Assembly (NCBI GenBank): GCA_973895155.1
Contig: OZ316891.1
Coordinates: 21,961,168-22,025,167, forward strand
Length of the DNA: 64,000 nt
Direction of reading: 5' to 3'
Source: Marsupella aquatica
Taxonomy: Eukaryota > Plantae > Marchantiophyta
A program made the translations under genes and the position numbers. This document shows positions 6,336 to 54,800 of the stretch, one piece after another; positions within the stretch are counted from its first letter, which is position 1; the number at the start of each line of letters is the position of its first letter. The notes below the pieces were generated by a model that was not told the DNA's origin, searched no databases, and saw nothing but the letters and a program-made list of their open reading frames with translations.

Positions 6336-6404
6336 CTTCCTAGTTGGGACCATTGTTAACTAATACCTTACATTTCAAATTGTGCAGGTGAACACGTTGT
6401 AGGA

Positions 6405-13449: not shown

Positions 13450-14932
13450 ATGCCTCGAATTTCAGACCGTCAACACTCACTATGTTTTGTGCGGAGGACT
13501 CTTGAATTCAACATTGCTTTAGAATCTTCTGGTAGTGAGCAGGACTCCGATGACTCCCTATCATCGTTGTCCTCTGGTTTTGAGATGGACATGACTATCT
13601 CAGACAGTGATACTGATGGAGCTTTCGAGGACTCAGATTCGGACTATGACTTTGACTTGTTTGAGCTAGAGGGTCATCCTAGTGAATTGCTAGCTCGAGT
13701 TGTATTTTGTTATGCACCACACTCGATACTTTGTTGGGCGTGATGTGGTGCAGAAGTCCAAGGATTTTGTCCGTAATTACTTTGATGGGCTTGGCCTTGT
13801 ATTCAGACAGATGGTGGCATGGAGAAGAGTACCTTCTTTTACTTGGTGGAATTAGTTGAGAACGATCCTATCTTTGTGAACAAGTCATGGCATGATCAAG
13901 CACCAATTGAATGGCAATTGGCTGTCACTTTAGATCATTTTGGCCAGAACGGAAATGGGGCATGTCTAAATCACATGATACCAACATGGGGGATCAGCAA
14001 TGGATCATTGGTGAACTTCACCAAGCAATGTTTGGTTGCACTAGAGGCAGCATTGTGCCAATACCTACAATGGCCAAAAGCTGTTGAACGTCATGAAATC
14101 CAGCAGGAGTTTGCAAAATTGGGGTTTCCAGACTGTATTGGTTTGATTGATGGATCTACTTTGCCTCTTGCACAGCGTCCAGCAATTGCTGGTGAATGTT
14201 ATTTTGATAGGAAATCAAGATATTCAATTAATGCTCAGGTGGTATGTGATCATCGAAGGAAAATCTTGTTCCTATTCACTGGTAAGGCTTGAAGTTGTTG
14301 CTGCATTTGTGAATGATTGTATTTGAAGCTTTTCATACTGTCATACATTCCTAATTGAATGTGCTTCTTTTGGTGTTGTCTCGTATCCAGGGATGCCTGG
14401 AACGTGCTCTGATTTGGTGTGCTTGAAGAAGTCACCCTTGTGGTTGTGGGTGAACAATGGAACCGGATTTACAAATGGGCAGTACTTGTTAGGAGATTCT
14501 GGTTATGTAGCCCTCCCGCACATGGCTGCTGCATACAAGAGAGCAGACACCAGTGTACACAAAGAGGACTTCAACTCTTGTGTTGCAAAGTGTAGGGTCA
14601 CCAATGAGCACTGCATTGGTGTGCTCAAATCCCGTTGGTACTCTTTGAGGGAGCTGCGAACTCAATTGAACTTGAAGAAGGACAATGTGTTTATGATCCG
14701 CTTAATTGGGGTATGTGCAAAGCTACACAACTTTGTTCAAGCACAACATGATGAATGGACCGACTTAGACTCCCCTATGGAGATAGATCGGGAGATTCCA
14801 GGGCTGGGCGAAGATCATCCATTGCATGGGCCCCAATTGGCCGGTGTAATGCTGCAAGCTAGAGTGATGAGCCATGCTTTGGCTTTCCATAGGGCACCAG
14901 GTGGAGTCCTCCATAGAGACGTTAATAGATGA
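13450..14932 (+). pseudogene. Harbinger-type DDE transposase (frameshifted N-terminus)
   Basis: GFPDCIGLIDGS, YFDRKSRYSINAQVVCD, intron 14282-14390 (G|GTAAGG...CAG|GG), MPGTCSD, YLLGDSGY, RVTNEHCIGVLKSRW. Frame breaks around 13720-13818. Confidence 0.88.
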
Positions 14933-24900: not shown

Positions 24901-25013
24901 GACGCTCAATGAATAGCGCCTTAATTACTAATTCTCTGCTTGTACAACAAACGAGTTGATCTGCAGGTTCGCAAATTGTTTGGTTCTGATTCGTTTCTTG
25001 TTGTTGTTCTCAG

Positions 25014-26017
25014 AGGTGAATTCGAATGATACAGTTCCATGGGGAGTGTACGTGCTCGGCGAGCTTGTGAAAACACTAAACACCTTGACGCGACGGAGCG
25101 ATGGCACGATCAACAGAAAGCTTGCCGACCTCATTGAGTTCAAGGTCCCCGCTTCGGAGAAGCCAAAAAACGGCGTCTCAAGTAAAGACGTCGTCATCGA
25201 CGACGTGACAAACGTGTGGGTGCGAATCTACTTGCCCAGCGAGGAGTCGAATAAGAGGCGTCTACCAGTGCTTGTCTACTATCATGGAGGTGGCTTCGGA
25301 GTCCTTTGCGCCAACGAGGCAAACATCGACAACCTGTGCAGGACGATGGCAAAAACCTTCAACATGGTCGTCGTTTCTGTCAATTATCGGAGAGCACCGG
25401 AGCATCGATTTCCCACAGCGTACCACGATTCGTTCCAGGCGCTGGAGTGGCTCCAGTCCACTGCATCTCGTGCACACCTCCCTCCTACAGCAGACATTGC
25501 GCAGTGCTTCTTGGCTGGAGAGAGCGCGGGCGCCAACATTGCGCATTTCACGGCTTGCCGCGCTGCAGAAAACGAGAGGGAATTGATCCCACTGCGAATC
25601 CGTGGCGTGGTTATGCTGCAGCCCTTCTTTGGATCCGAGCGGCGCACGGCGGCTGAAAACGCTCTCGCCAATGTGCCTCTGATTTCCACTGATGCCACGG
25701 ACTGGCACTGGAAAGCTTTTCTGCCCGAAGGAGCGGACAGAGATCATCCAGCTTGCAACGTCTTCGGCCCTAATGCTCGTGACATAGCAGAGCTCCCCCT
25801 TCCACCTATTTTCCTGGTGACGGGCACTCTGGACCTGCTGATCGACCATCATCTCAATTACGCGTCTCGCATGCTGGAGATGGGCAAGTCCATCAAAGTG
25901 GAAAACTACGTTGGTGGTGTTCATGGGTTTTATTTCTTTGCGCCTGTTGGCACGAAGATATCTTTGGCGTGCCTCGCCGATGTCAAGAATTTCATCCAAT
26001 TGAATTCAAGATCATGA
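25014..26017 (+). CDS. Carboxylesterase (CXE, HSL/GID1-like alpha/beta hydrolase); main exon, start probably in an upstream exon
   Basis: RRSDGTINR, YYHGGGF, VSVNYRRAPEHRFP, GESAG, DWHWKAFLPEGADRDHPACN, DLL, VHGF (Ser-Asp-His triad intact). Acceptor TTCTCAG at 25013. Confidence 0.92.
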
Positions 26018-28577: not shown

Positions 28578-29225
28578 TTACAGAACGTAAGTAAAGGAGT
28601 TCGACCTGAGCCAAGACCTAGCTAGGGTCAGAATAGCACGGACCAAGGCATTTGAGACTGTGGGGGTCGACGGATGAGACCGCGGAAGAACTCTGAACCA
28701 ATAATCAAGATGGCACCATGTCGTGTCTTCTTCCCAAGGACTGTCGGGCTCGTAGATATATCCAAACCGCACTGCCCATGAGTTCTTGCAGCTCTCCATA
28801 TTTTGAGACATGCCGCTAGCGATTTGCTGAGAAATGGCCTCAAGGCATTTATGGCAGCCCATTCCTGAAACTTCGTTGTCTTCCTGTGCTAAGGGTATAT
28901 CACACATGTACCTAGTCCCGACCTCCAAACCGTTCCTGGTCTCGTGCAGCAAGTGAGCAGCTCCTTGTGCTTCGTACATCTTGGGATAGGGCACGCTCTT
29001 GAGAAGCTTGAGCAGGAGACTTTGAGCTTCCGATCTATCCCTGAAAGTGGAATCGAGGCAGCACAGATGATCCTGCAGAACCTTCATTTCACAGGAAGCG
29101 TTGAGCCTGGGCCAGAAGTTGAGGATTCCGTCTGCCGAAGTTGCAATTGGCAGCTCGAACACGCCAGCACTTGCCCTCAACGCCAAGCACAATAACAATG
29201 CGGCTGTCATGGCAATTCTCTCCAT
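28578..29225 (-). CDS. Secreted cysteine-rich protein, Gnk2/DUF26-like
   Basis: Intronless 215-aa ORF with a signal peptide (MERIAMTAALLLCLALRASA) and a C-x15-C-x2-C...C...CHLDY pattern reminiscent of DUF26. Confidence 0.55.
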   Translation of the reverse strand: MERIAMTAALLLCLALRASAGVFELPIATSADGILNFWPRLNASCEMKVLQDHLCCLDSTFRDRSEAQSLLLKLLKSVPYPKMYEAQGAAHLLHETRNGLEVGTRYMCDIPLAQEDNEVSGMGCHKCLEAISQQIASGMSQNMESCKNSWAVRFGYIYEPDSPWEEDTTWCHLDYWFRVLPRSHPSTPTVSNALVRAILTLARSWLRSNSFTYVL

Positions 29226-31099
29226 TGTCCCTCGTCCTGGTTGTTGTTATGTTAACAGCGGTGTTTCCACCGCGCAGACGCTGTCTGAAGCTCTTCTCCT
29301 AGCTTTAGAATGAACCTCTTCCTCGATCGGTCCGAATGTAAAGATATCAGTACAGTAGATAGCGACTCGCATTGATAGAGCCTGAAACACACCTCATGCT
29401 GTCCACGTTCAACGTCGGTTCCGCCTACCGTATTTGTACAGGCCGGACAAATTCAATCTTGATTCATACCTGTCATCACGCCAAACATTCGAAGTCCTAA
29501 TCGACCAGAAAAACGTACCTGTCTTGATATTCTTCTACTACATGAACAAAAATGCAATGACGGGTGCAAGATCATATGTCGATCAGAACTGCAAAAACAG
29601 TCGTCAGTACGATCGATGGCGCACCGAAGATATGGGACCAGGCCAGCTAACTCTGTGAAGTGATTCATCCGGAGGGATTAATTTAAGAGTTGACCAATAG
29701 CTGCTACATGTACGTACAACGTGCGGTGATCCCACCAACCAACTACTGTGGTATGTTGAGCTGAACGCTATTGACCTCAGCGTGATGTGAGGCACCACCA
29801 GCGCTCTGAGGACTGTTTACTTTACATGGTCTAGGCCTGATCGAGCTAGTGACATGAGCTTTATATGATTGTATGTTGAGTTGATGTGCAACATCCGTCG
29901 ACGGATGATCGATTGCTCTGGACCGACCTGGATCGATATCTCGTCCAAGCTATTACACTGCGGATTGAATTAATGGCAAACTCTATGATATTGCCCGGGG
30001 ATCCAGCCATGATGTATGTCCGTTTGTCGCAGATGTGGGACTCGCTCATTCATGTCGTGACTTTCAGAGAAGCACGAAGCTAAACGCTTTACTGTACGTA
30101 TGCACGACGAAACTCGATTCCGAGCAAATTTCTCAACTTCTCGCGGTCCAACCGGGGAACCAACTCAGCACCGATCAAATGCATGAGATAAACCCTAAAG
30201 CCCATATAACCCTAAACTCCACTAGAAAACTTCCCGAGTAAAGGAAAACCTTCATTGCAGGACTTTCTCTGTGAATTGGGCTCGGAATTGGGCTATGATG
30301 CATGTTTTTCCAGCTCTCTGCAAGATTGCAAATGCAAGGTCTTTAACAGCGTGATCATGATGTAAAGCCACTCAGTGTTGATGTACCAAAGGTTTGAAGC
30401 TGGAACTTTAAGAGTACGGACTTTCTTTGTGAATTAGCTTACGCATGATTATTGTTTACAGCTTTCTGAAAGACTGCAAATTAAAGGTGACATCAAACCA
30501 CTGTTCAGGATTGAAATTTGACAAACGTACACGAACTCTTTCTTTCCCACAAGTAACCTGGGCTGAAGGCGGACACCGACAGATGTGCTGCTTCACTTTC
30601 GGGTATGTACAGTGCCAAAGATACATCCTCCACGATGTGCGTCGTTCTTTCAGACGGTGGGAGAGATCGATCATGGCAGAGTTGCAGGCATGCCTTCCTT
30701 GCAGCCACATTCGTGGATCATGCGAAAACACGAGCGCTTTGTGGTCGGAGCACTTCTCGCCTGGCTTGTGTTTCCAGATCTGCGGTGCTTTTGCCTCGTA
30801 TATTCTAAGGGCTCATTCTTGGGGCGGCTTTATGAGACTTCTGGGACCAAGTGAGACTACTGGGACCAAGTGAGACTACTGGGACCAAGTGAGCTTTTTT
30901 TTTCAATGCGAAGAATGGCCCAATTCCACCCCCACGTACTGAAAAGTACTACATTAGCCACTTTCGGCGAAAATTAACCAGATTTTTTCTGTAATCTAAC
31001 TAATACAGGCAATCATCAAAGGCTACACCCTGGGCCTGCAGTGTGTAGAGCTGTGTCTAAAATGAACAGTGTAGAATTGTGTCTAAAATGAAGACTCTA

Positions 31100-31946: not shown

Positions 31947-32952
31947 CAAGCTTTAGGAGATATATGTTTGATGGGCCCCCTGTGAACCTTTCTTACCTGA
32001 TGGACCCCTAGGTAACTTTTTTTACCAAGTAGGACCCCTCGTAATGACCAGTACACGTGTTCTTGTGTGGTGCCTACACCTGTCCTATTGTGGTGCCTAC
32101 TATGTACAGTGACTCCAAGCAAACTGCACAGTTGAACCGTGCGGTCGACTTTACATGGTCGACTGAGAAACCACAGAGATTATTTGGGAGAAACCGCGAA
32201 AAGCGACTGCCGCTGTCGAAATTGCGATTTGAAGACAATATGCATTATGTCTTCGGATTCACTGGGTTAATGTCTGAAGACACAATGGATTATGTCTTCG
32301 GGTTCAAATTTTTATCGTATCGTGGGGTAGTTATTAGGTATTTTTTTCACGTTGCGCACATGGGTTTTTCACGATGTTTTCATACACGACTGTCACCGTC
32401 AATGTGGGGTACCTCCAAATGTCCACAAAGAATATTCAAGTTCAATGTTCAGAATTTGCCTACTGCCGCCACAACAAAAATTGGCAAATGATTGACAGTT
32501 GCACTCAAAAAATGGTAATATTCCCCTGTGCAATGCATACAAACAATTTCAAAAGAAGACAGACCCAAAGGTGTCGGGGTACACCCTAGTAAATCCTAAA
32601 CCTTGAAACACGGGAAGACATAATCCATTGAGTCTTCAGGCATTAACCCATTGAATCCGAAGACATAATGCATATTGTCTTCAAATCATAGTTTCAACAG
32701 CGGCAGCCGCTTTTCGCGGTTTCTCCCAAATCATCTTCGTGGTTTCTCGGTCGACCATGCAAGGTTGACCGCACTGTTCAACTGTGAAGTTTGCTTGGAG
32801 TCACCATACATAGTAGGCACCACACAATGACAGGTGTAGGCACCACACAAGAACAGGTGTACTGGTCATTAAGAGGGGTCCTACTTGGTAAAAAAAGTTA
32901 CCTAAGGGCCCATTAGGTAAGAAAGCCCATCAAGCATATATCTCCAAGCTTT
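31947..32952. mobile_element. Foldback element with ~350-bp inverted arms
   Basis: 31947-32300 is the imperfect reverse complement of 32614-32952, with a ~310-bp spacer. Flanked by AGGGTTG at 31940-31946 and 32953-32959 (possible TSD). Confidence 0.8.
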
Positions 32953-33394
32953 AGGGTTGAGGGCAGCTTCCAAGTGGACCAGCAGCAGCATCATGAGTGT
33001 TCTAGGGAAAACGGGAGACATCAGGAGAGAGCATAATTATTGAAAAACAACTGGCCAGGGAAGCAATGGGGGAGAACACATTGAAAGAGCTTAGTTTGTT
33101 TGAGTACATATGAAGAGAGCATGGACTTGGCTCATCCCAATGTGTTCTTCCCCAGGCGCCAAACAACCCACAGGCTCCTCAACAACCACCCTCAAAGACG
33201 CACACCCTCTCCTCATGAAACCTGGCGCCACCATGCCTGGTAGTTATTGTAAGTCGATGAAACAACTGGCCATGATGTCATATAGTGCCTTGTGTGCCAA
33301 ACGAGGCCAATGCACCAAAAAAATATGCAGGTTTAGGAAGTGTCTCTCTAATTATGCTCGCTGTATGACACATACATAATTTCATTTATGTTTA

Positions 33395-33835
33395 CAAGTG
33401 TACACATGCATTTGTCATTTACTGCAAAGACACAAGATGCATCTATTGATAAGAGCTTGCACTAGAGCACTTACACGCACTTTTCCACAAATATGTCGGT
33501 GTTTTTTGGACTGTAAGTGCACACATGCAGTTGTCATTTACTGCTAAGACACAACATGCATCTATTGATACGAGCTTGCAACAGAGTACTTACATGCACT
33601 TTTCCAGAAAATATATAAGTGTATTTCGGTGTACACATGCATTTGTCATTTACTGCGAAGACACAAGATGCTTTTGCAGTTAAGAGCTTGCAATAGAGTA
33701 CTTACATGCACTTTTCCAGAAATGTATAAGTCCATTTCGGTACACAAGCATTAGTCATTTACTACGAAGGCACAAGACGCTCTTATTGATAAGAGCTTGC
33801 AAAGATTATATAGAGTACTTATATGCACTTATCCA
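33395..33835. repeat. ~110-120-bp tandem repeat, 4 copies
   Basis: ACACATGCATTTGTCATTTACTGC...AAGAGCTTGCA...TACTTACATGCACTTTTCCAG units near 33402, 33521, 33633 and 33742. Confidence 0.88.
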
Positions 33836-34251
33836 GAGTGTGTAGGGTGTAGAGTACTAGAGGGTGTGGGACCTTATAGCAGGGTCATGGCGACATTGCG
33901 AGCAACCCCTTCGCGTCTTTTGTACCATCGTTTCCGATACTCAGAATCCATCTTTCGCACGATGAATTCGACTGAGGACCATCAGGCCAGAACAATTTTA
34001 CAGCCACGGTAGTCGGGCCTTGTTCCAGTGACGACATCTCAGTGGCTGCGATCCGCTTTCTAGAGAGTGAAGCATGTTTCGCAGATTATGTAGGAAGATC
34101 AGTCGATCAACATTCGATGAAGTGGCCGGGGACGGAACAAACGACCAAATTAGAGAAAGGTGAAAGCTGAATCTCGCAAAATCACGTCCCCCAAAGAGAC
34201 TGAGGCAAGGCGAAAAAGTGGGCGGTAGAGGAGAAAATTGAGCAGGAGTCT

Positions 34252-35732
34252 ATGTGTAAAAACCTGAAGGAGAAGGGGAAGCGAATGGTCAAGGACGAGG
34301 AGGAAATTGATGAGGCGGCGGAGCCAATGAAAGGTAAGAAGAAGCGAAAGAGAAAAGAGGAGATGGAGGCTGAGGCACTGCCGCTGGCAGTGCGCACATC
34401 AGTGCAGACGTTGAAGAGAGCCCTGTATATTGGAGCACATGTCAGTGCAGCTGGAGGTAGGTTCTTTCTTTCATAGATCATCAAGTACATTCCGATTCCT
34501 CCCTTTCTTCCCATGCATATGGAATCTGCTAGACTCTTGAACGGCACAATGAAGTTCAATGCTGGATAATTTGTTAGTTGATTTTCTCGACCCTAAACCC
34601 TAGACCTCCACTCCCTCATCCTTTCTCAGTACTTGTGTCTGACACAAACTGAAATCTATTGACGTGAACAGGAGTCCATAATTCAATCAACAATTCTGTT
34701 CATATTGGTGGAAACGCGTTCGCCTTGTTTGTCAAGTCACAAAAGAAGTGGATAAGCCCTCCACTCGCTGAGGAGGCTCGTGATCAATTCCTCGCTCTTA
34801 GCAAGAAGCACAGCTACGATTGCTCGAAGCATATTGTACCTCATGGCTCTTACTTGGTGAATCTCGCACAGAAGGACCCTGATAAGGCCGAGCAAGCGTA
34901 CAACTGCTTCTTGGACGATTTACAACGCTGCGAGGCTCTTGGAATAAACCTTTACAACTTTCATCCTGGTAACACTGGGCCACATAGGCGAGAGGAAGCA
35001 ATAGGTCGTATAGCAGCGAACCTCAACAGAGCTCATAAGGCCACCAAAAGCGTCGTCACATTGCTTGAGAACATGGCGGGAGGTGGCAACTTGATAGGAT
35101 CTACTTTTGAGGATCTTCGGCATATTATCGCTCTTGTCGATGACAAGTCCAGAGTCGGGGTATGCATCGATACATGTCATTCCTTCGCTGCAGGTTATGA
35201 TCTAAGGACTCCGGAAGCGTTCGAGAAAACCATCGACAGTTTTTCGGAAATAGTAGGAATGAAATACCTCAAAGCGCTACACATAAACGACAGCAAAGCG
35301 CCACTGTCGTCGCATCGAGATCTTCATGCCAATATCGGGACTGGATTCTTAGGCTTGCGCGCTTTCCACAATGTTGTCAATTTCGAGCCTTTTCAGCATT
35401 TACCAATGGTTCTCGAAACTCCCGTACAAAAGAAAGGCGAAAACGGGAAAGTAGTGGACGATACGGGGGTGTGGGCGGCTGAAATCAAGTTACTTGAAAG
35501 CCTGATTGGTGCGGATACTGAGAGTGAGGATTTCAAAAGTGAAGAGCAACGGCTACAGGATTTGGGCGCCGAGGAAAGGAAGAAATTCCAGCAGCAGGTA
35601 GATAAAAAGGTGCAGAAGACAATTGATGCCATATTCAAAAGGGCCAGTCCTAAGAAACATAAGAAGAAGGCGCAGGACGAACCCCGGTCGGATGTAGAGT
35701 CCGATGGAGAGCGTTCAGAATTTGCCCAGTGA
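34252..35732 (+). CDS. APN1: AP endonuclease family 2 (endonuclease IV / Apn1), ascomycete-like, ~421 aa
   Basis: Exon 34252-34456 (...LYIGAHVSAAG), intron 34457-34671, exon 34672-35732 (GVHNS...GNAFALF, HGSYLVNL, YNFHPG, LLENMAG, CIDTCHSFAAGYD, LHINDSK, DLHANIGTG, LETP). The canonical EndoIV metal-binding motifs appear intact. Confidence 0.95.
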
Positions 35733-36172
35733 CTTAATCCCTTAATTTGCACATTAATTGTTACCAGATATTGTTAGTTCTCGGTTCCTGACGTCGTCGG
35801 CTCGACATGTCGATCTTTTTAGAAATCATCATATCTCCGGAAGTAACCTCAGCTTCTCAATAAACGGGTTTACCACAAGACCGATGACACTGTAAATGTC
35901 CGGTGTGATCCTCACCACCGTTTCACGTCACTTACTTTATTGACATGAATAAAAAATTCGACACTAGATAGCATTGGAAGGGGACAACCTAATTTGTGGT
36001 GAAAATCCTTCCACAAAATTGAACCCAACCCACAGCTCCTGTGTGGGCAATCCAAAGGGAAATCACAATGCCTATGTGCTTCCCTAACGTAGTTTACTCG
36101 GATATATATTACAGGGAAATCAAGGAATCCATTCTACAACAGACGATTCTTGAGCTTTTGCGATCCCACGAA

Positions 36173-39100
36173 TCATGAAGAATTGTTTTTTCTAGCCATG
36201 AGTTCAGCTGCAACTTCATCAACACGGGGAGTTCCACTTGATGGAGCTTCCGCGTGCACAAATAAGTCCCCTTCCTCTTCATCGTGTTCGCTTGGTTTCT
36301 TGCTATGTGCACTCCCCGTGTCCTGCACTGAATTGAATGACGCCGTGGATATCGGTAACTTTGCCTTTTCAGTAACTTCCCGTGGGATCAGTTTTGCTAC
36401 ACACTCACCAGAGGCCAAAGCCACTGCTTGTCCTTTGTGTGTAATCTCCATTACTGTTGGTCTTTCATCGGGAGGAAGATTTTGTACCCAGGGCTCTCCA
36501 TCTACCCGCATGAACGTGTGGTCCACACCTCCCTTATGAAATTCAATCTTCACTTTATGGGCCTGCACCGAATGCCAATTTCTAGGATCAGATAACCATG
36601 AATATCACGTGCCCCAACAATGCAGGAACACCGCAGCTCATTGATGGAACTCATTTGAGTAACTAAAGGCATGATTCCCTACAACCTGAATATAAGTTCT
36701 CATAGGACCAATCATTTTGGCACAGCATCCCAGCCAAAACCTTACCCTAAGGCAATCCATGCGGCTGCTGCGCACGATACAACTTTGGCTGGGATACCAC
36801 TGATTAAAGCTTTGGAACTAATGTTATACAGACGAAGATCAAACAGTACTGTTTGGAGGGCAATTTTTGGATATGAAAGAAGTATCTGCCAATAAGAGCC
36901 GATAACTACTTTATAAATGCTTCATAACATAGACTTTCTTACTGGTCCTAAAAACTTTAGCCGAAGCTCCTGTAGGCCAGATCTTGCACGGATATCAATT
37001 CTGTATTTAGACCTTCTTACTGGTCCTAAAAACTTTAACCGAAGCTCCTGTAGGCCAGAACAAGATGCTCGGATATAAATTCTGTATTTAGATTACTTCT
37101 GCTGGAGCTCATTGCACCTGGCTTTGGATCTCTTTGAAGAAGTCTGAGGTGACACATAGGCTGGAAATACAATACAACTAATGCAAAGAGTTTGGGAAAG
37201 ACGATGACGGACCTGGGCTAGTCGCATCCCATGATGAGGCGGCATGAACAGCGCCAACCCATGCCATCCATCTCGGAAACCAACGATTTCAATCAACCCA
37301 TCATTCACGTAAGGAGCAGTTAAGCTCCGCTGCAAATGACCACAATTTATGTTACTTGGCCACCGCACACCTAATACAGTACTTGAAAACAAGCTGGTTT
37401 TTTGTAGGGATACTACAAAAGTCCTTAGCAAAGTAAGAAAAAATCTATTGCTAACCTAAGCACAACCGATTCAATGATCACCGCTGAATCCTTGACTTTC
37501 AAAGCAGATTCACATTCCATGAAAGACATAAGGGATTGTAGCAAACACCTTCTTCGATAATGAGGTTCCAGGAGAGCCCCAAGGATTCAATCCTCCAGAA
37601 AAGCTTGGCAAATTTAGCATGATAATAGACCTTATGCTGGGCATCATCAAGAATTTTCATAAAATCAGAACGTGCTTTACAGCTTGTAGGTCCACTGTAC
37701 TTATGTTGAGAAACAAGATTCCAACATGATTCATAAACAAGATCACATTCAAATATCAGGTCGTAGCCTGAGTAAGAAAAGATCAGGCTGTTGGCAGTCC
37801 AGGGGTACAGTAGCAATCAATACTAGGAACTACTTTGCAATGTCGCTGGAGGAAATACAAATCCAATAGGAAGTTCAGGTATCAAACCTCGATGCTATCT
37901 CAAGTTTGTGCCATTCGCCATCATATTTGGCGATAAAAATATTTGCCAGAGTGTTGATATTCCTGCAGCAGGTTTAATTTGATCAACTCAAAGCAATACA
38001 GACTAGAAGGCACGGACACGCGAGCTTCACAAAACTACAGAGACCTTTGTGTCAAGTGTCTCAAAACCATCCCAACATCAAATCAAAAGAGGCTAATGAT
38101 TATAAAGATAGCATTTCAACAAAATAATCGAATCTTCAAAGGATTCCTGTCTTTGTGATACAGTCGAACCTGGAACTTGTCATTCAAAGCAAAGAAAAAC
38201 AAGAAGCCGGAACTTATAGTCTCTCTGGTATTCTCATGTGTCCATGCGTGATTCGACTTACTTAGATCTGGGATGAAGACACGATGCACAAAACCACCCT
38301 TGCGTGCAAGCCAAACTAGCATATCTAGCCTGCAATTCCACCCAATCATAACATAGTGTCTTACAAATGTTGTTGATAATCGAACTGACGGTTACACAAC
38401 GATACAGTCCAAGAGTACCTCAATCTTTAAATAAAACTACCGTCAAAGGAAAGCCTTCACCCTGACCCATTGTGCGACAAAGCGTTTCAAATACCTGGTT
38501 CATGAATTGATTCTTGAACTTCTCTGGGTGTTCTTGCCGTAAATTGTGAAATTCATATGAGACTTGTGAATCCATCCCTGCAGAATAAGGACAACTTCAG
38601 ACCACAAATCTAACCGGCAACGAAATACCGATAACCGGGAAATAAGAAACGTGACTTCCATGCTGCAACCCTCCTCTGATTTAATTCCTAGAGTGATGTC
38701 TATGCTTGAAAGCCGTGCCAAACCTACCGATACTTAAGTAGTTCCAAAAGCCTCCTTGATAAGAATGGCGCCCAGACTGCAAGGAACGTCAAATATTGTC
38801 AACTAGACTTCAGTTACGAGTAACACTGTGTCCACAACCCACTAAACCTAACCTCATTTCTGACGATTTTTCCACGAGAGCAAGGAGTCAGATTCCTACG
38901 TTCCTGTAACCGTGATACATATGAAAGATTCAGGATAGTGGTTGAGGGAGTCAAAACTTGAAGCGAGGACGGTATGGTTCTCAAAATCAATCCTCTTAGA
39001 CACAACGCAACAATGTAATAAAAGGATAACATAACTTGCCTCAAAGCCTTCACTTTTGTCAGTCAGACGTTGAAAAGATTTTAGTTGGATCAAATTGTGC

Positions 39101-41029
39101 ACTCTATTCCAACTGTGACTAGACATCCTTTTCAACGGACTATCCTCGACAGTCTTGGACATGCGAATGACGACATGCCACCTGCGCCAACGCATTTTCT
39201 AGACATGAGTGTCTCAATCTTCGTACATGGAAGTGTTAGTGACTCAACATCGCGTCGTAGTCCACAGAAATTCCCCAGCTTTCTTTCTAGGGACAAGACA
39301 TATTTGGCTCATTTGAGTTATTATGGTAAGTCAAACTCGAAAGGGGTATAGGAAGGATTATCCACGCGAGTTAGCAACAAAAACACCCAGGCGCTCTACA
39401 ATGTATTGCGGGATAAATTAGAGTAGGATTTGTGTGAGCCTGTGGAGCAGTCCACAAGCTTCCTGCGAGTATAATTGGTTTCTGTATCAAGTGTATGCTA
39501 TCATAACCAGTGTACCTGTCAACAGGCATGGGCTTTGCCTCTGCTGTTTTCTGCAAAATCTCCCGCATAGCTTCAACAGTTGTCGGAGGGTTTTTCTTAC
39601 CCTGCCATAAGACGATCAGAACATCAAACAGTCAAGAGTACATGAGACAACGGTCACTTCCTGAATAGGATCCTCGAACACTCAGTATACTCTAAACGCT
39701 AAATTTCCTACCTTTTCGTGGAGAAACATTTTTAAGAAATAACCTGAACTATCATCAATTACTCCTTCGCATACTCACCCATCCGAAAGAAAAGGGAAGA
39801 TTATTCCCAGTGCCAAGAGGGATGGTGGATATGGGTGGCAACTCTTCTAGATGCAGGTCTGCAACGACTCCCAGCAACCAACCATGTGTGCCATCTCCTC
39901 CAGCCACCTGTCAAACGAATATGGTACGCTCCGGCATCATCTACTGGAATAGATGCTTTGCAAGCAAGAGGCCGACTAACTTCCTCATTACAAATTTACA
40001 AATCACCTGAGTTCCGTTCGGTTTCATGAATTTGATTTGTTAAACCACCACTTTCTGTTCTCTAGTAGTAAACTCAGAACTCTAGGCAAATGCATCTGCT
40101 GTCGATCACATCGCTGATGCTCATGGATTTCTAAAGTGTTATCTCAAATAGACCACAAGATCGTACAATGAGGCGGAGCCGGCTTCTAATCTCAGTGGCG
40201 AAACTGTCTCCATCTTCCTCCAGAGATTTTAGGTGTGCTAAAAATTGCCCCAGCTTTTCCTCAGGATTTTCTTTAGGGAGCTCGTAGACCTGATCATATG
40301 AACAACAAACACTCCAATCAAACGAGAAACACTCAGATTGACCAGTCAGACACAGGCAGCAATGTAAGCGATGATTTTTCTGCGTAAGAAGGTGTTCTTA
40401 AATATGTTGTATATTAAATTAGAGACCAATTGTGAAGGTAAAGATTAACTCCATCGATAGCGCTAGATATAGCTGCTCCTCACACTTGCATAACACATTC
40501 AACAGGACATACAACTCAGTAAAACGAATTGTCTGGTGAAGAACTGAAGCGACAAGCAATCCATTCTAAAGCAGTAATCAAACACAAAATTCCTGTGGAT
40601 GAGTGACGTACCTGCTTTGGATGCAAAAGAGCACGAAGATGTGGGATAATCTGAGCTCCCAGCTGACCGCCACTCTTGCCGTTAATAAAAACCAGTACAG
40701 GACAGCTGTACATCATCCACCATTACGAGTAAAATTGAGCTTACACGCGCAAATACGAGACCAAACTTATCATTGTAAACCCTTTTGTGGCAGTTTCGGC
40801 AAGAGGTTTCCTGCAAGGTCAAGAAAAATATAACTTCCCAAGACACAGCACTGCGACAATTTTCTTCTCTTAAAGGAGCAATGCGGCAAGAGCGGTACCT
40901 CGGAATTGGCATATTCTGTGCATTTGCGGGAGCAATCTCCCCATTTAGTATATACTCTGGTATAACGAAGTCCTCCATGAGTTGTACTGTCTCTCCCGGC
41001 TCCCCGTTTCCTCTCCCCGCTCTCGACAT
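36173..41029 (-). CDS. DGK: Diacylglycerol kinase (plant DGK5-like, no C1 domains), multi-exon
   Basis: Exons encode [83 protein letters not shown] and FMRVDGEPW. Splice sites flank them. Confidence 0.93.
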
Positions 41030-44000
41030 GGAGAAAAACTCAATTCACTCGCAGCGTGGGCGGGCTGCTATCTTCGGAGGCGTCGATCAGATTCTTCGGC
41101 AAATGCAACCTCCAAAATGGATGACAACCAGCTGTCCTCTATTGTCCCTCAGCTAAAAAAAATCTCATAGTTTGACCACAATGAAAGCGTGACTATTGCA
41201 AGGCCGCCCACGAAATCCCCTCGTAACCTCAAAGATTTCAAAGCCACTTCCAGAGCCAATTTTTTCCCTCCTCCGTCCTGTTTCGAAGAATTCAAAGCCG
41301 GCCTTAATCAAGTGACGAGCTCATGACCGCTGAAGTGTTGCGAATAAGAAGGCCAGATATTTACGACGACTAACTAAACGCGGGTAGCCTCTCCGACGCA
41401 AAAATTAGCGCAGGCCTGCAAGTACGCGAAAAAGCTCCAGAGTGTCAGCACCAGCAATACTACTCCTGTCCCCGTTAACGCGTTTCCCTCTTGCGAGAGG
41501 TAACCGCGTACTTTTATGTTCATACATTTAAGCTACCGACGCAAAACAGGTACTAAAAACCATGGCGGCTAATCCTCCGAAAGCTGAGACGAGATGAGCA
41601 CTACACTTTCTACCGTCACTCGTGCTGAATAGAATTGGGTGATAAGTGTTTCTCACACTTCCCGACGACAGGCCGCCGGTGATCTAACCGGCATTGAACG
41701 CGTGCCTAAAAGAAGAAAAGAACGATCCACGCAAGGAGGCACCTTGCAGTCTCCAACGGTAATCGCAAGGAGGTAATCTAACCCAATGGGCTCGTGGATT
41801 GATGAAAGCTTTGCAATGAGACAAGGACATTCTACGTCGGAATCAATTTACAAAGCAGACACCTATGTCAGTCAGCTCTCTCCGGGGAGAAGAAGCTCTG
41901 CCCTTGCTACGGAGTAAGATCTATCATCCATTACCGAAAAATAAGAAACAGATCTGTAGCAGGAATGCAGCAGTTGATACCTCATGACTCGCCCTCCGCT
42001 GCCGATACAATCTCTCTACAGAATGACAAGAGGCTCTACATTGGTTCGGACGAAAGATTTATATCCATCACGATGTTTCATTCTTCTTAAAAAGCAAAAT
42101 CTGTACTAACCTGCTCTACATGTTCCCGGTCCGTATCTCCGTGAATGAATCAAAACGTGAATCGCACAATTCGTGCTGGACGTACTATAATTTCATGATT
42201 ACTGTCTATCTTCATCTATAAATTTAAGTAAAACAAAATAATGTGCCACGGACTTGGATACACCTCATACGGCATTGAAGGGAAGGGTAGCTTGACAGAC
42301 GTATAAAATTGAGGACAATAGTGCTAATGGACGTTCATTGTCTCTTTCCAACAAACAAAGACCGAGGACGAAAGTATGTGACAGACGGCATCTGTCTCGC
42401 AAAATGCTGGACACAACATTTAGCACAATTTTTAAGCTGCCGGCACAGTGGGAGTGCACTTTAGGCAGAGCACTGTAGCAAGCTTTCCGGGCTAAAGGTA
42501 AGCAATCGCGCCAATCGCGCCAAACGCGCCCCACCCGTAGAGCCCCGCTTTCTAAGGATTGTTCGTCCCTAATGTACCGTCATTGAATGTAGTTTGCAGC
42601 GCACAAAAACATTATAACGTAAGAGCACGAGTACCAATCGCTAGAACAGAATGCTCAATTTTGCGCCAGAGCCTAGGGATCTCACGCAAAGATGTCGCAA
42701 TTGAACAGGTGATCGCACGACACAGAACCTATTTCAAATTGAACAACCCGAAATCCATCATTACCTTACTGAGCTCCCAATGGCACCCTGGCTCCATCCT
42801 CGAAGGTCGGTTGCTCCAACAGGCCGTTGAACCGAAACCAATCAATCGAACAACCCCGCCCTCCGCTTTCTCCAAGTCCCGCAGAAAAGAGCTCCACTCC
42901 ACCAAATGAAATTGCGTTAAGCTACCTTTTTCAGTCAGATTCCGCGCTCCCGTCGATTCTATGCGGAAAGCCTGCTCTCACCTGCCTGCCTGCCTGCAAT
43001 CGCCTCCACAAACCCAAGCTCCGATCGCTCCCTAGCACTCCCCCATCTGCATCCACAAGAAGCGTGCAGACGGCAGAGTTCTTCTTCTTCTTCTTCTTCT
43101 CTCTGTCTCTCTCCGGTGTCTTCCAATTCCAAAGGACCTTTCCTAAAGTGAAAAGTGGGAATCTTTCAGTAATTCGAAGTAAACTCTACAATTGTTTTTA
43201 CTGGGCATTTCACATGACTGCGGTACTGAATATTCTGCCCATCCCCAATCCAATCTACTTCATAGAGTCATCACTAGGGTGAAAGAGAATGACCTATTGA
43301 TTTTGGAAGGAGGCTTCAGTTTAGGGTCCCTGCCAATTGCAAAGTATTAGGTTTTGACAAACTTGTTCATTTCTTTTGATAGCATGTGATATATGTTTTT
43401 AAATCTCCAATTTTTCCCAAATGTTATTTGATGTCCAGTTTATTATTTCACTAAGTTTGATCATTCTTTTTGTGATCATTGACTCCATTTTGGAAAAACA
43501 TACAGATGGTACATGCTCCAGAGTTGATGGTCTGCCCTTTGTTGGATAGGTCTTATTATTTCCGTAAGTTTGATATTTGTTTTAGATTATTTACTCCATT
43601 TTGGAAAAATATAAAGATGGTACACGAATGGTACACGTTCCAGGGTTGATGGTCTACCCTTTGTTGGATAGGTCAGCTTTTGGTTTCAAGACAAAACAAA
43701 AAATAATAATACTCAACATATTCAAAGTGACCATTGGTTCATATTTATCAGCAAATGAGCTGGACCCATGTAGTATGCGGTGCCATGGGGATCCACCTAT
43801 AGACACTCATCATTTCTCATTTCAAAAAAATGCGATTCAAAAATATATTCTCAACTTTAATTTTTAAAATTAATGCAAACACTGAAAAGTCATAGTTTAC
43901 ACCTGCATGCCCATAATTGTTTACTTTCCGAAGGCAGAAAGTTATGCTCTGTCGCTATTTCCTGACCGAGACGTACGGGCACTTACTCCAACTTTGCAAT

Positions 44001-48819: not shown

Positions 48820-51800
48820 TCAGCCAAAGGCATACGGATCATCACCTTTATAGTAAGGTACCAACCCATCGATTTCAAACAAGTCGCTAATAGCTGGCGA
48901 GGGTGCCCTTGAGGACGTCTTAATTAATTCGATCTTCTGTTCACAACATATGCACAGTCAGTAGGTCAGTTCAGGTCGGCCAAAATCAGACGATTGATTA
49001 AGTCCCATAAATCCAATGAAGCTAAGACAGATGACTGGGAAAGATCTACTGACTACGATAATGTTGGCATACAATGCATTTGATCTCGGTTCTAACTTTT
49101 GGTAATCTTCCTTCAACAGAAAAAGCCTCCAGTTATTGCATAAGAAAAAGTTAATTTTTTTCCCAAAATAGCTTGTCCTTTACTCGCCAACCTCAAAATT
49201 CCACAAGCCTTCCTTTCCTAGCTACTGTGGATCTCTCGCGAGAGAATCATGTAGGACATATCAATTACGTTACCTAGCTTTCACTCCAGCTGCCCAATTG
49301 AGTCTGCACACTCTTATCATCTACATATCTCTAAGGTCCTCAAAGCCTACCATCACGTGTAACTCGGGTGAACATACTTCCTGCGAGACGTCTTTAGTGG
49401 ACTTTCGAACTCTGCGTTTGGGAACTGTCTTCTTTTGCTCCAAAGGGAAGCCAAGCACATTATGACTAGTTCCCTGGAAATCAACCCACATCACTGTCAA
49501 ATTTACCAGCAGTAAACGTCCTGTAGTCCGAAAGATCTCAGGTTCAAACGAATGCAAAGAAAGATTTTGAACGATTTGTGTTTACATTATGACAATTCTA
49601 TGTCGCACCTGAACGTTTAATCCTTAAACTCCTTCGGACGGTACCTCCACAAAATCTAACAATGTTCTTGCATGCAGAACACCATGAAATACCATTGCAC
49701 AGAACAGAGTGCACAATACAGATTTGCGTTTGTTCTATCTCATGATTATACCTTGTGCTTTGTAGTCTTATGTCTACGACTTTCCAGGTTGTAACTCTAG
49801 CGGAATTATATGTCTGACCCTAGTAGGACAAACTTTTGTAGGAAAGGCCAGAGAAAAATTGGGGGCAATTGGTCCACGCACACGGAGATGCGAGAGGGTC
49901 TAACGGGAAAGTGCTACCTTCTGATGGGTTGGACCAGGCATTGGATGTAGGTCCGATTGTTGCGAGCATGTCAATCCTGTCTGCCTTCGGGACTCGTCCA
50001 CCGAATGCTGGCCACGCTTTATTATTTGTTGCTGGTGCGGTTCATTATCCTGCGAATGCAACCAGAATTACTTTTATCTGCTCATTGAACGTTTAGTCAA
50101 GTCCTTACACAGTCCACTCGAGCCCCGTAAGTACCTTTGTCATCAATTTGGACTTCTTGTTTCCGGACGAACAAACTTCCATAGCTTTCGTTGGCTCGGT
50201 TGACGGTTGATGCTGCCGGATTGGCACCTTATCATGATTATCCAGAAAACCCTACGCGCATGAGCTGAAATTGTCAATATGGTGGCAAAGGAAATTCCAA
50301 AATGCTTGAGATGGACCGCGCGAACTAAACCCTGGAAACCTAGCTTATGTTGCATGTGGGGGTCGGTAAGTTCCACGAACCTTTTTCCGGGACGTTCTAC
50401 CGTGTTTTCTGGGACCCTCGTCTGGAAGACTCATGATATCCATCTTTCTTTTCTCAGGTCTCGGACTTTGTTGGTTTTTGTGTTTACCCTGCATCTAAAT
50501 ATCACTGACACTTTAACAAGCTGAAAACTGTGGGGCAGCTTTATAGACAAAGTCGTTCTCAATCTCCCAGGAAGCTCTTCATTTACAGAGGAGAAATACC
50601 TGTTGCGCCGACTTCTGACTTTCTTTGTCAGCATCCTCGTCGGTAGTGTCTGTAAGATCGACAGTGTTTTTTACCTTCAATCTTACGTTCGGCTGCTGGG
50701 ACATTTTATCCTGGAGGTGTGGAACCATATAGTTCGCCGACGTCGAATGTCAGATCCAAATTCATAGTAGGAGGTCATGACTCGCTGATATATTGCTGGC
50801 TGAAAGAAGATATGGGCGAGTCATTACCTTTGTCATCGGCGTTACCACTGGAATCGGGATATCCTTACAAACAAGGACTTCAGTGACAGTCATCTTAAAG
50901 TCCTGATTTACAACTTGCAGATCTTTATCCTCCTCCGAACCCTTTCTTGTACTGATCTGCTGGAGAGCCTCTTTCAACTGGATTTCCCACCCCAAAGCCT
51001 TCGATCTCCACTACAGGAAATTTAAGCCCACATAATTCGGCCAAAATCAGTCCTTGTTCTAGAAGGGTCGTTGTATTTTGAGAGAAGTCTTCAATTGACG
51101 GTCTTTGTAAGAAGGTTATATATACCTCATTTAATTCCCGACTCAGCGAATTCTGCACGTTCTCGATTTGAGCCTCGTGCTCATCGTCCAACTTCTCAAG
51201 CTGCAACACATGATTGCCAGGAGATACTCATTAAAATTTCGATAGGATACTCCTTAGTATAGCATCTGAAGTTGCTTCACAAAAAGCCATTGTCCATGAT
51301 ATCAATTCGATGGAGAATGGCTGAAGCTAATCTTTCTCATCTCACAATGTCATCTCAAAAACAAGTGTATCATTCTCGAGGTAAAACAGTCAAACGGTGT
51401 CCATCATGATGCAATTTTGAGGGATACACCTATACTTCATGTTCTACAGGAGAAGTGTATTTGAGTCCAATCAAAACGATAACACACGTATGTCTCGAGA
51501 ATCACTTCCATGAGATTACTTGTGCTTTATGCTCTTCTGCTTTCGTGATAAGAAGGTCTTCATATGTGACCTGCATCTCCTTCATCGCCTGGTGCAATCT
51601 AGACTTTTCTTCAGTCATCTGGTAAAGTAAATGACAAAAACGACTAAGTGAATTTTTGACCACTCGATCTTGATACCTGTATCGTGAATCAAGCGTAAGC
51701 AGCTAGTATTGCTAAATTTTCATTTACGCTTGTATCAACGAATAGTATTTCACTGGCTCCAAGACAACTCTAAAGACTTGAACGGTCAGCCCGAGGCAAA

Positions 51801-54800
51801 TAAGAGTTTCAAATCCAGAACTCATCCTAAAATTGAGGTATAACTTCTAATATGGTAAGTCAAGGAACGAGGTGGTTTCGTTGTCTTTAATTTTCCAGAG
51901 ATTGTAACACAGGTCTAGAAACTCTTGCTCACAACCGTTGCTTGATCTATGGCACATCTACGGCATATGGTTTTGACGTGTTGGGTCGAATAATTGAACC
52001 TTCTGTACCTTAGCTTGATATTTCTGATGCATTTTCTCCATATCCTCTTGATTAGACTTCCGAATCTCCTCAACCTTCCGATGCAACTCAGCAATGTTGC
52101 CATTACACTATTGAAACAAGTTAAACAAACGGATAAAATGCCTTTAAACCAGGTTCATATTCTATAAACAAGAAAATTCGCATCCGAACAAAACCAACCG
52201 TCTCATTCCCCGTCCGGTGCTCCTCTTGCATTTTGTGAATCTCCTCAGCATGAATGGTAGCAATCTTTGTTTTCTCTTGCTCATAGCCCTGCAGAAGTTT
52301 ATCTATCTGCAGGGTCGAATGGGGTAAACGAGTAAGATTGAGAAATATGTGTAAGCAGATCGCATCCGACCTGCAGATCTACAGTCTACGTCAGGATTTC
52401 AGAGAATGTGCCTATGAAAATCTTACCGTTTCGCTCGCGTTCTGAAGTTCCACTTCCTTTTTGTGAATTTCATCGGAGTGAATGGAAACGATTCTTTCTT
52501 TGTCTTGCTCATGACCCTCCCGAAGTTTTCTGATCTGCAATTGAAAGCAAAATCGGAAAATCTGTTAATAGTATAGCCAGTTATGCAGATCGCATAAATC
52601 TAAGCTAGCCAGTGCCTACTTCTTAATCAGGACTTCGGTCCGGACGGAGCATGATGGTACTGACCATCTCCTTCACGATCTGAAGGTCCTCTTCCATTTT
52701 GCGAACTTCATCGGAGTGAATAGAAACGATCTTCGTTTTCTCTTGCTCTTGCTCTTGAAGTTTTCTAATCTGCAGAGCGGACGGAAGACCAGTCAAGAGT
52801 TTTGTGATCTATTAATGGTTCGTCGGTCGAAGCAATTCCTACTGGCTCAACCATGACTTCGGAGAATATTTAAACATTAACTACGTACCGTCTTATTCGC
52901 TCTATGAAGCTCCTCGTGCTGTTTGTCAGTTTCTTCAGAGTGAACGGAAACGATCTTCATTGTCTCTTTTTCGTGACCTTCTCGAAGGTGGCTGATCTGT
53001 AGCGAGGACAGGGAATTTAGCTAATCAAAACTTTTCGGAAATGTGAATAATCTGTACTTCAAGGAATTGAACATTCTTGGACAGGTGACAGACACCACAT
53101 ATTACCTTGCACTCGCAATCATCTTGCAAACTTAGCCACCGTTGGTCGAATTTTCCAAGCGCCGTCGCCATGCCTTCGTCAGAAGCTTTTCTAGCCGCCT
53201 TCAGGGCATCTTCTCCCTGCGAATTATATTTACATTCAGTAAAGGAGAAATCAGGAACATAGTCTGGAGACTTGTCTTCCGATGATTTCAGAAAGCTAAT
53301 AATTAATTGTGGTTCCAGTCTAATATGTGTTGGACTGGATGAATGGTCCTTACTATATCCTTTCAATCGGACAAAACCACAAATGTGCATGGATCTGGGG
53401 TTCTCTTGAGAAGGTGCTGGTCTCTTGGAATAACTAGCAAATATAAGCCATCATAGAATGTTGCACCTTTAGCCTTTCCTTTGCAATGCCTTCCTCAATT
53501 TCCATTTCAGATTTCCTCCTCAGGGCCGCTATTTCCTGTGCGAATGGGTACTCAAGGGAAACGCGTGGCATGAGTTATCAAATTATTTTACCTACGGTCC
53601 ACAAAACACTTTCAGTGATGAATTGGAGTACATTGCGATTTAGGCCAAGAATTTGGCTATCTTCGATTCTTGACCAACCTGATTATAACGCTGTGAAACG
53701 TCCTCAAGATGCTGGGTCGATTCTTCCTGCTTGGATTCTAATTGCACGTTAAACTTGATCTCCAGACTCTTCGCCGTATTTTCCGATGCAGTTAATAGCT
53801 CTTGCACCTGGACAGAAAATAATCATCAGATCCTGTATACAAATGAGCAGAGTTTTGCTCTTAGAGTGCGCGCTCCAATTGTTTCAAAGGAGGCTGAAGT
53901 GAAGTCGTCTTACCATGGCGTTTTCTCCTCTGAGATTCGCTTCATTCTGGGACATGCACGAGATGAGTTGAGTTTTCTCAGTACACTCCCGAGAGAGTCG
54001 TTGAAGTTCATCCTGAAGAGTAGAAAACTTCAACTCCTCCTTTCCGATACAATCGACCAACCTCTCATTCTCTTTCACCGCTTCTTGTAACCGACGTCTG
54101 ATAAGCTCCATATCAAGCTGATATTCTATAAGATGATTGGCCGATTGTTTCTGCTTGGATTCTAACTGAAGTTTAAACTCAATCTCCAGACTCTTCGCTG
54201 CAGCTTCGGCTGCAGTTAATTGCAGTTGCACCTGGACAGGATAATAATCATCAGATCCTGTATACAGATAATCAGAGTTTTGCTCATGCGATGCGCGCTC
54301 CATTTGTCTGAAAGGAGATGGAAGTGAACTTGTCTTACCGTGTCGTTTTCTCTTCTGAGATTCGCTTCATTCTGGGACGTGCACGAGATGAGTTTACTTT
54401 TCTCCGTACACTCCTGAGAGAGTCTTTTCATTTCATCCTGAAGACTAGAAATCGTCGACTCTTCCTTTTCGATAATATCGACCAACCTCTCATTCTCTTT
54501 CACGGCTTCTTGCAACTGACCTCGGATAGCCTCCATATCAAGCTGATACTCTACAAGATGTTTGGCCGATTCTTTCTGCTTGGATTCTAATTGCAGGTCA
54601 AACTGAATCTCCAGACTCTTCGCTGCAGCTTCCGCTGCAATAAATTGCTCTTGCACCTGGGCAGAAAAATAATCATCAGATCCTGTATTCAGATGATCAG
54701 AGTTTTGATCTTACAGTGCGCGCTCCAATTGTCTGAAACGGATTGAAGTGAAGTACGTTGTCTTACCATGACGTTTTCTCTTCTGAGATTCGCTTCATTC

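What the first reader, a model, noticed from the sequence alone, without database searches (positions are those of the whole stretch)
34252..35732. Ascomycete-like APN1 (endonuclease IV) embedded among plant genes: candidate fungus-to-plant HGT
Seen: an intact two-exon gene ending ~440 bp from the convergent plant DGK. Established: flowering plants repair AP sites with ExoIII-family enzymes (ARP/APE1L/APE2) and lack Apn1. From recall, the segments EALPLAVRTSVQTLKRALYIGAHVSAAG^GVHNS and VWAAEIKLLESLIG...LQDLGAEERKKFQQQVDKK, and the intron position, resemble filamentous ascomycete Apn1. The branch-like TTGAC lies only ~8 nt from the acceptor, which is fungal style. Inference: DNA-mediated transfer that gave a bryophyte a second AP/UV-damage repair enzyme class.
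Basis: partly seen in the sequence, partly recalled or inferred. Interest (0 to 1): 0.78.

Follow-up and report, generated by a model that had tools for sequence, protein, structure and literature searches.

The report
Fungal DNA-repair gene in leafy liverworts
A liverwort carries, beside an ordinary plant gene, an intact fungal-type gene for a DNA-repair enzyme family that reviews list as absent from plants; it likely came from a fungus long ago and is predicted to still cut damaged DNA.

Summary
Confirmed and strengthened. The window holds an intact two-exon APN1 (endonuclease IV) gene 440 bp from a convergent 13-exon diacylglycerol kinase (DGK). The DGK's best matches are liverworts (Calypogeia fissa 79%, Marchantia 65%). 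APN1's best match is C. fissa (85%), then Leotiomycete fungi. C. fissa has two copies, each on the same scaffold as, and one or two accession numbers from, its DGK. The gene pair is thus shared by distant liverworts, which argues strongly against contamination. A related organism carries the gene with pN/pS 0.23 (p 3e-4). Trees put the plant copies in one clade inside Leotiomycetes; placement outside Pezizomycotina is rejected (AU p 6.5e-7), outside Leotiomycetes is not (p 0.06-0.15). The intron sits at the fungal site (39 of 59 scorable fungal loci) but is about four times longer, which points to DNA-mediated transfer. All nine metal ligands are kept; the Arg37 wedge is Lys. Corrections: the branch-site argument is not diagnostic, UV repair is unsupported, the likely start is 34285. 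Expression and activity are untested. Not found in ten paper searches or in this scan's notes, but the largest bryophyte HGT tables could not be read.

The parts
34252..34456 (+). APN1 exon 1 (from the first in-frame ATG): acidic/basic tail with KKKRKRK cluster, then first barrel strand YIGAHVS
   Evidence: aligns to C. fissa P0003/P0123 and fungal Apn1
34285..34287 (+). Second in-frame ATG, the likely conserved start (410-aa product)
   Evidence: ATG 34252 is ATT in organism B in two studies; 34285 is kept; C. fissa P0003 is predicted to start at about this point
34457..34671 (+). 215-nt GT-AG phase-1 intron at the same site as in fungal APN1 genes
   Evidence: same site and phase in 39 of 59 scorable fungal loci, 50-117 nt, median 58; native DGK introns 150-650 nt
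34672..35732 (+). APN1 exon 2: endonuclease IV TIM barrel with all nine metal ligands, C-terminal helices and KKHKKK cluster
34139..34251 (+). Decayed remnant of the longer ancestral N-terminal coding region (frameshift and stops)
   Evidence: tblastn of C. fissa P0123 matches in two frames; in-frame stops at 34168 and 34201
36173..41029 (-). Native liverwort diacylglycerol kinase, 13 exons, 524 aa, convergent neighbour conserved beside APN1 in C. fissa

Best explanation
This is an intact APN1 (endonuclease IV) gene of filamentous-ascomycete type lying next to a liverwort DGK gene; it was likely transferred once, as genomic DNA with its intron, from a Leotiomycete fungus into a common ancestor of this liverwort and Calypogeia, and has been kept by selection. 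Since then its intron grew to host size, the long fungal N-terminal tail decayed in this lineage and the fungal C-terminal CSH end was lost. The protein is predicted to work as Apn1/Nfo does. A three-metal TIM barrel flips out an abasic site, cuts 5' of it and trims blocked 3' ends, so that polymerase and ligase can finish base excision repair; it may also nick next to some oxidised bases without a glycosylase. Two basic clusters likely send it to the nucleus, where it would back up the plant's own exonuclease III-type enzymes. Shown: gene structure, family, neighbourhood, tree position, intron site, purifying selection. Inferred: single DNA-mediated event, donor group, activity, location and role.
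For: Homologues: of the best 120 clusters listed (6067 passed), 1 is C. fissa (85%), 43 are named fungi, all Leotiomycete genera (67-79%; class recalled except Claussenomyces), and 76 name no organism. Neighbourhood: APN1 CAM6098692.1 and DGK CAM6098691.1/689.1 share a 16,428,225-bp contig; APN1 CAM6109391.1 and DGK CAM6109393.1/397.1 share a 9,872,779-bp contig. One 11.8-kb contig of depth 19.4 covers 32875-43500 without a difference. Organism B (two other studies) covers APN1 and DGK, about 2-5% different. Selection: 14 synonymous and 12 replacement changes, pN/pS 0.23, p 3e-4, no indel from ATG 34252 onwards in either exon. Window versus Calypogeia: APN1 82%, DGK 78-79%. Trees: plant clade 100/93, 99/87, 97/86; inside Leotiomycetes 100/98 and 98/98, though 92/73. 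AU tests reject placement outside Pezizomycotina (p 6.5e-7) and outside Leotiomycetes plus Sordariomycetes (p 0.011). Intron site shared in 13 of the 14 closest loci. Ligands matching E. coli H69, H109, E145, D179, H182, H216, D229, H231, E261 and wedge Y72, L73 are kept. Best fold matches are Babesia APN1 and E. coli EndoIV.
Against: Placement as sister to all sampled Leotiomycetes is not rejected (p 0.149; 0.062), nor is grouping with Helotiales (p 0.067), so the donor is not pinned down; the nearest rows are unnamed. The Arg37 wedge residue is Lys, as in only 2 of 118 close homologues with a residue there and 9 of 352 rows; this could lower activity. The N-terminal region is decaying and the first ATG is not conserved. 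Synteny in Calypogeia rests on accession numbers and scaffold lengths, not on DNA I could read. No listed contig of organism B spans APN1 to DGK in one piece. The selection test rests on 26 coding changes. 20 of 59 scorable fungal loci lack the intron.
Confidence: 0.9

Rival explanations
1. Fungal contamination or a chimeric join: the gene belongs to an endophyte and was assembled into plant DNA.
For: Leafy liverworts host Leotiomycete fungi (Mniaecia is parasitic on liverworts, PMC7325659, passages). Run X1 may be the window's own source, so its spanning contig is not independent.
Against: The same APN1-DGK pairing occurs twice in an independent C. fissa assembly. Window and Calypogeia proteins form their own clade. 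Organism B joins exon 1 to 2.7 kb of upstream flank in one contig and covers APN1 and DGK at similar depth. The intron is host-sized. No other window ORF matches the flanks of 80 fungal loci.
Confidence: 0.02
2. A real transfer, but the copy in this lineage is weakened or on its way to loss, or kept for a minor role.
For: Arg37 to Lys; broken N-terminal extension and shifted start; end branch about as long as or longer than the whole path to the Calypogeia copies (0.11-0.19).
Against: pN/pS 0.23 overall and 0.25 in the catalytic core (p 0.013), frame intact in two organisms; all metal ligands kept; Lys at this site also occurs in Sclerotinia and Letharia homologues; many Apn1/Nfo proteins lack the N-terminal tail.
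Confidence: 0.07
3. Vertical inheritance of an old eukaryotic EndoIV that most plants lost.
For: EndoIV occurs widely in eukaryotes (Babesia APN1); named green-algal homologues were not in my trees.
Against: The plant copies sit several well-supported nodes deep in ascomycetes; AU p 6.5e-7 against lying outside them; 70-81% identity to fungal proteins; shared fungal intron. Marchantia and Riccia proteins are in the database but not among the 120 best hits.
Confidence: 0.01

Closest known systems
Apn1 of Leotiomycete fungi (e.g. Hyaloscypha variabilis, Claussenomyces sp. TS43310) and yeast Apn1 / E. coli Nfo (EndoIV family, PF01261, TIGR00587)
   Same: 70-74% identity over the whole protein to named or metagenomic fungal copies, 81% to unnamed P0033; same barrel, metal ligands, intron site and basic C-terminal cluster.
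   Different: Lies in a liverwort beside DGK; intron 215 nt against 50-117; N-terminal tail shortened; CSH end, present in 111 of 121 close homologues, is lost in all three plant copies; Arg37 is Lys.
Calypogeia fissa unnamed proteins CAM6109391.1 and CAM6098692.1
   Same: Orthologues: 82% identity, same clade, next to DGK by accession.
   Different: Annotated only as 'unnamed protein product'; keep Arg37; one model keeps a long N-terminal tail (557 aa).
Fungus-to-bryophyte gene transfers: NAS in mosses and Blasia (PMC12454661, abstract and section 7 read); FBT, YANB, EUPF, RDS1 (PMC12513842, passages read)
   Same: Fungal gene fixed in one bryophyte lineage, flanked by plant genes, nested in a fungal clade.
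   Different: Those are metabolic, defence or stress genes; this is a core DNA-repair enzyme.
Transferred DNA-repair genes: bacterial MAG glycosylase in the land-plant ancestor (title seen in a reference list); DNA ligase in bdelloid rotifers (PMC10665377, listing and abstract start)
   Same: A repair enzyme gained sideways by a multicellular eukaryote.
   Different: Different enzymes, donors and hosts; here the donor is a fungus and the enzyme family is listed as absent from plants.
Plant AP endonucleases ARP, APE1L, APE2 (exonuclease III family)
   Same: Same reaction at abasic sites (PMC6728418, passages).
   Different: Unrelated fold and metal use (Mg versus Zn); not homologous. Their presence in this host was not testable.

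Membership tests
Endonuclease IV / Apn1 | Family profile score above curated cut-off | tested here: met
   TIGR00587 324.5 vs 129.65 bits; PF01261 190.5 vs 31.1
Endonuclease IV / Apn1 | TIM-barrel fold matching solved EndoIV | tested here: met
   Exon-2 model, mean pLDDT 73.9; top Foldseek matches Babesia APN1 and E. coli EndoIV, E 7e-27 and 2e-24
Endonuclease IV / Apn1 | Nine ligands of the three-metal centre including catalytic Glu261 | tested here: met
   All nine present by alignment to 1qtw. The ligand list is recalled; Glu261's role is from PMC13113976 passages
Endonuclease IV / Apn1 | Minor-groove wedge Arg37, Tyr72, Leu73 | tested here: inconclusive
   Tyr and Leu kept; Arg37 is Lys here and in organism B, Arg in Calypogeia; roles from PMC8396254 and PMC13113976 passages
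Endonuclease IV / Apn1 | AP-site incision, 3'-end cleaning, nucleotide incision activity | not testable with these tools
   Needs an enzyme assay
Fungus-to-plant horizontally transferred gene | Nested inside a fungal clade, alternatives rejected | tested here: met
   AU p 6.5e-7 and 0.011
Fungus-to-plant horizontally transferred gene | Physically linked to native plant genes in more than one assembly | tested here: met
   Spanning contig; accession-adjacent DGK on both C. fissa scaffolds, Calypogeia DNA itself not seen
Fungus-to-plant horizontally transferred gene | Present and under selection in related plants | tested here: met
   Organism B, pN/pS 0.23; C. fissa orthologues
Fungus-to-plant horizontally transferred gene | Expressed in the host | not testable with these tools
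   No run usable for this question
Leotiomycete-derived (donor class) | Placement outside Leotiomycetes rejected | tested here: inconclusive
   ML trees place it inside (100/98, 92/73, 98/98) but AU p 0.149 and 0.062
UV-damage endonuclease (UVDE) | UvdE family profile | tested here: not met
   AP_endonuc_2 was the only Pfam family at E up to 0.001

The most novel reading that the evidence does not exclude
A whole branch of leafy liverworts runs base excision repair with a fungal endonuclease IV taken from a liverwort-dwelling Leotiales-grade fungus. The enzyme supplies a major share of their abasic-site and glycosylase-independent oxidative-damage repair: the first land plants with a working EndoIV, and a natural test of why other plants do without it.
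Probability: 0.3. Interest if true: 0.8.

Novelty: new member of a known kind. Interest (0 to 1): 0.62.

Why it matters
Two reviews list the EndoIV/Nfo family as absent from plants (PMC6728418 passage; PMC10573277 table for Arabidopsis). This is an intact, selected, syntenic exception. Transfers from fungi to bryophytes are common, but the cases named in the passages I read are metabolic, defence or stress genes; a core genome-maintenance enzyme that was kept beside presumably redundant host enzymes is less expected. The fixed DGK neighbourhood gives a marker to date the event across liverwort families. The enzyme is directly testable in yeast mutants and in Marchantia, where no close copy turned up.

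Tried and rejected
No whole genome is held, so host ARP/APE1L/APE2 and copy number were not checked. Expression: no RNA holder listed. Branch-site distance as a sign of fungal origin: rejected; YTRAY words lie 7-18 nt from the acceptor in 4 of 12 native DGK introns, and APN1's intron also has CTGAC at -33. GC3 is uninformative: APN1 0.51, DGK 0.44, the carboxylesterase ORF 0.61, ten fungal copies 0.41-0.60. Hyaloscypha, a rhizoid symbiont of leafy liverworts (recalled), as sister group: rejected for the two species sampled (AU p 2e-4). Mniaecia as donor: only a lead; it is in Leotiales and parasitises liverworts, but no Mniaecia sequence was among the named hits. Co-transferred neighbours: none of the window's frames outside APN1 hit 80 fungal loci. 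Names for the nearest unnamed clade: none in the cluster look-ups. Atlas search for the ORF at 28581-29246 gave nothing usable. Paper searches returned 0 papers; others listed none that by title or abstract start describes this gene; 66 was too loose to inform. The primary EndoIV mechanism paper was not held. Earlier scan notes: two unrelated hits sharing 3 of 89 words, and none by words or place.

Full report
Observation. The gene is as described. Exon 1 runs 34252-34456, a 215-nt GT-AG intron 34457-34671, exon 2 34672-35732; the joined frame is 421 aa with only the final stop. It scores far above the cut-offs for Pfam AP_endonuc_2 and NCBIfam nfo. The best solved relatives by sequence and by fold are Babesia APN1 and E. 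coli endonuclease IV (exon-2 model, mean pLDDT 73.9). A 13-exon DGK on the other strand ends at 36173, 440 bp away.

Host. The DGK last exon found three proteins: Calypogeia fissa, Marchantia polymorpha and Riccia sorocarpa. The rebuilt DGK is 78-79% identical to C. fissa and 63-65% to the two complex thalloids. The host is therefore a liverwort nearer to Calypogeia (Jungermanniales) than to Marchantiales, and likely leafy. No whole genome was available.

Is it really in the plant? One 11.8-kb contig of run X1 (depth 19.4) covers 32875-43500 with no difference, but X1 may be the window's source. Independent evidence is stronger. First, APN1's best hit is C. fissa (85% over exon 2), which has two copies, 96% alike. 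One, CAM6098692.1, is numbered next to DGK CAM6098691.1 on a contig of 16,428,225 bp. The other, CAM6109391.1, is two numbers from DGK CAM6109393.1 on a contig of 9,872,779 bp. I read these as the two subgenome copies of one locus (polyploidy of C. fissa is recalled); I could not see the DNA. Second, organism B, from two other studies, covers APN1 and DGK at about 2-5% difference; one contig joins exon 1 to the upstream flank back to 31707, though no listed B contig spans APN1 to DGK (4 of the 5 listed runs were laid). A contaminant would not land beside DGK in separate assemblies of plants whose DGKs differ by a fifth.

Origin. Of the 120 best clusters listed, 43 name a fungus, all Leotiomycete genera (class recalled, except Claussenomyces), 1 is C. 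fissa and 76 name no organism. I built four trees: 175 rows by FastTree, 67 and 42 rows under LG+G4, 32 rows under a mixture model. Rows for the last three were chosen by hand from about 350 homologues to cover the nearest unnamed rows and named classes. The three plant proteins are always one clade (97; 100/93; 99/87; 97/86). They lie inside Leotiomycetes (100/98, 92/73, 98/98), next to an unnamed protein P0033 (95/33, 98/91, 88/84) and an unnamed metagenomic clade, and outside the Helotiales core. AU tests reject placement outside Pezizomycotina (p 6.5e-7), outside Leotiomycetes plus Sordariomycetes (p 0.011) and with Hyaloscypha (p 2e-4). They do not reject placement as sister to all Leotiomycetes (p 0.149; 0.062) or with Helotiales (p 0.067). 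The Helotiales, Hyaloscypha and class-level tests were named after I had seen a tree. The deep outgroups are unnamed, and no named green-algal copy was included. P0033 keeps the fungal CSH end that all three plant copies lack, so it is more likely a fungus near the donor than another plant. The long tail of C. fissa P0123 aligns end to end with Claussenomyces (35% over the full region), a Leotiales genus; Mniaecia, a liverwort parasite of the same order, is a lead only.

Route and later change. Among 80 metagenomic loci, 39 have an intron at the same codon and phase, 20 have none and 21 could not be scored; 13 of the 14 closest have it. Shared position points to transfer of genomic DNA rather than mRNA (inference). 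The fungal introns are 50-117 nt (median 58); this one is 215 nt, within the 150-650 nt of the 12 DGK introns. No fungal neighbour came along, as far as 80 loci show. Upstream of ATG 34252 the old N-terminal coding region is still recognisable but broken; organism B has further indels there and ATT in place of that ATG, while ATG 34285 is shared. APN1 has diverged from Calypogeia slightly less than DGK has (82% against 78-79%). The DGK distance to Calypogeia is about half that to Marchantia, which would put the event at well over 100 million years on a recalled split of about 400 million years; this is a crude single-gene inference.

Function. All 40 substitutions between the window and organism B in 34120-35745 were listed, identical in two studies. 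Of these 26 are coding: 14 synonymous, 12 replacement, pN/pS 0.23, p 3e-4; catalytic core 0.25, p 0.013. The nine metal ligands (list recalled, mapped on 1qtw) and the wedge residues Tyr72 and Leu73 are kept. Arg37, which inserts into the minor groove (PMC8396254, PMC13113976, passages), is Lys. That is rare (2 of 118 close homologues with a residue there; 9 of 352 rows) but occurs in Sclerotinia and Letharia, and Calypogeia keeps Arg. The likely mechanism is that of Apn1: metal-activated water cuts 5' of an abasic site, blocked 3' ends are trimmed, and some oxidised bases may be incised directly. KKKRKRK and KKHKKK clusters suggest nuclear import; yeast Apn1 also reaches mitochondria (PMC4428415, passages). 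Activity, location and expression are untested. UV-photoproduct repair has no support here.

Comparison and novelty. Reviews state that EndoIV is absent from plants (PMC6728418, passages) or list no Arabidopsis member (PMC10573277, passages and table). Fungus-to-bryophyte transfer is well known: NAS (PMC12454661, abstract and section 7) and 1,809 transferred families in PMC12513842 (passages; 'endonuclease' and 'Calypogeia' do not occur in its main text). The HGT tables of that paper were too large to read and may list this family. Ten searches showed no paper on it; subscription papers are mostly outside the library. This scan's notes hold nothing related.

Verdict. A real, old, selected fungus-to-liverwort transfer of APN1 (about 0.97 for the transfer, 0.9 with retained repair function). 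It is a new member of a known kind of event, made more interesting by the enzyme family involved. Interest 0.62.

Noticed in passing
window 31953-32949: About 1-kb insertion of a very high-copy repeat with inverted ends, absent from organism B in two studies (contigs skip 997 nt): a recent transposon 1.3 kb upstream of APN1.
   Followed up: partly
window 33398-33802: Tandem array of about 112-119-nt units, 2.6-3.6 copies, just upstream of APN1; organism B contigs skip 233-344 nt of it.
   Followed up: partly
window 36930-37092: 78-nt tandem duplication in the last DGK intron; a contig of organism B skips 78 nt here.
   Followed up: no
window 24932-26014 (+): Single long ORF of an alpha/beta hydrolase (Abhydrolase_3, E 3e-56; carboxylesterase-like), GC3 0.61.
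   Followed up: no
window 28581-29246 (-): 222-aa ORF with a signal-peptide-like hydrophobic start; no Pfam family and no usable Atlas hit.
   Followed up: partly
window 6360-9988 (+) and 13786-14929 (+): Transposon-like remnants: a split DUF7869 ORF pair and a split DDE_Tnp_4 transposase.
   Followed up: no
window 50900-57000 (-): Multi-exon gene for a long coiled-coil-like protein with an internally repeated exon (53887-54366 and 54219-54710 share sequence); no Pfam family above cut-off in the pieces scanned.
   Followed up: no
proteins P0124, P0127, P0128, P0129: C. fissa lists two DGK records on each of the two scaffolds: isoforms or a tandem duplicate; the window shows one DGK.
   Followed up: no
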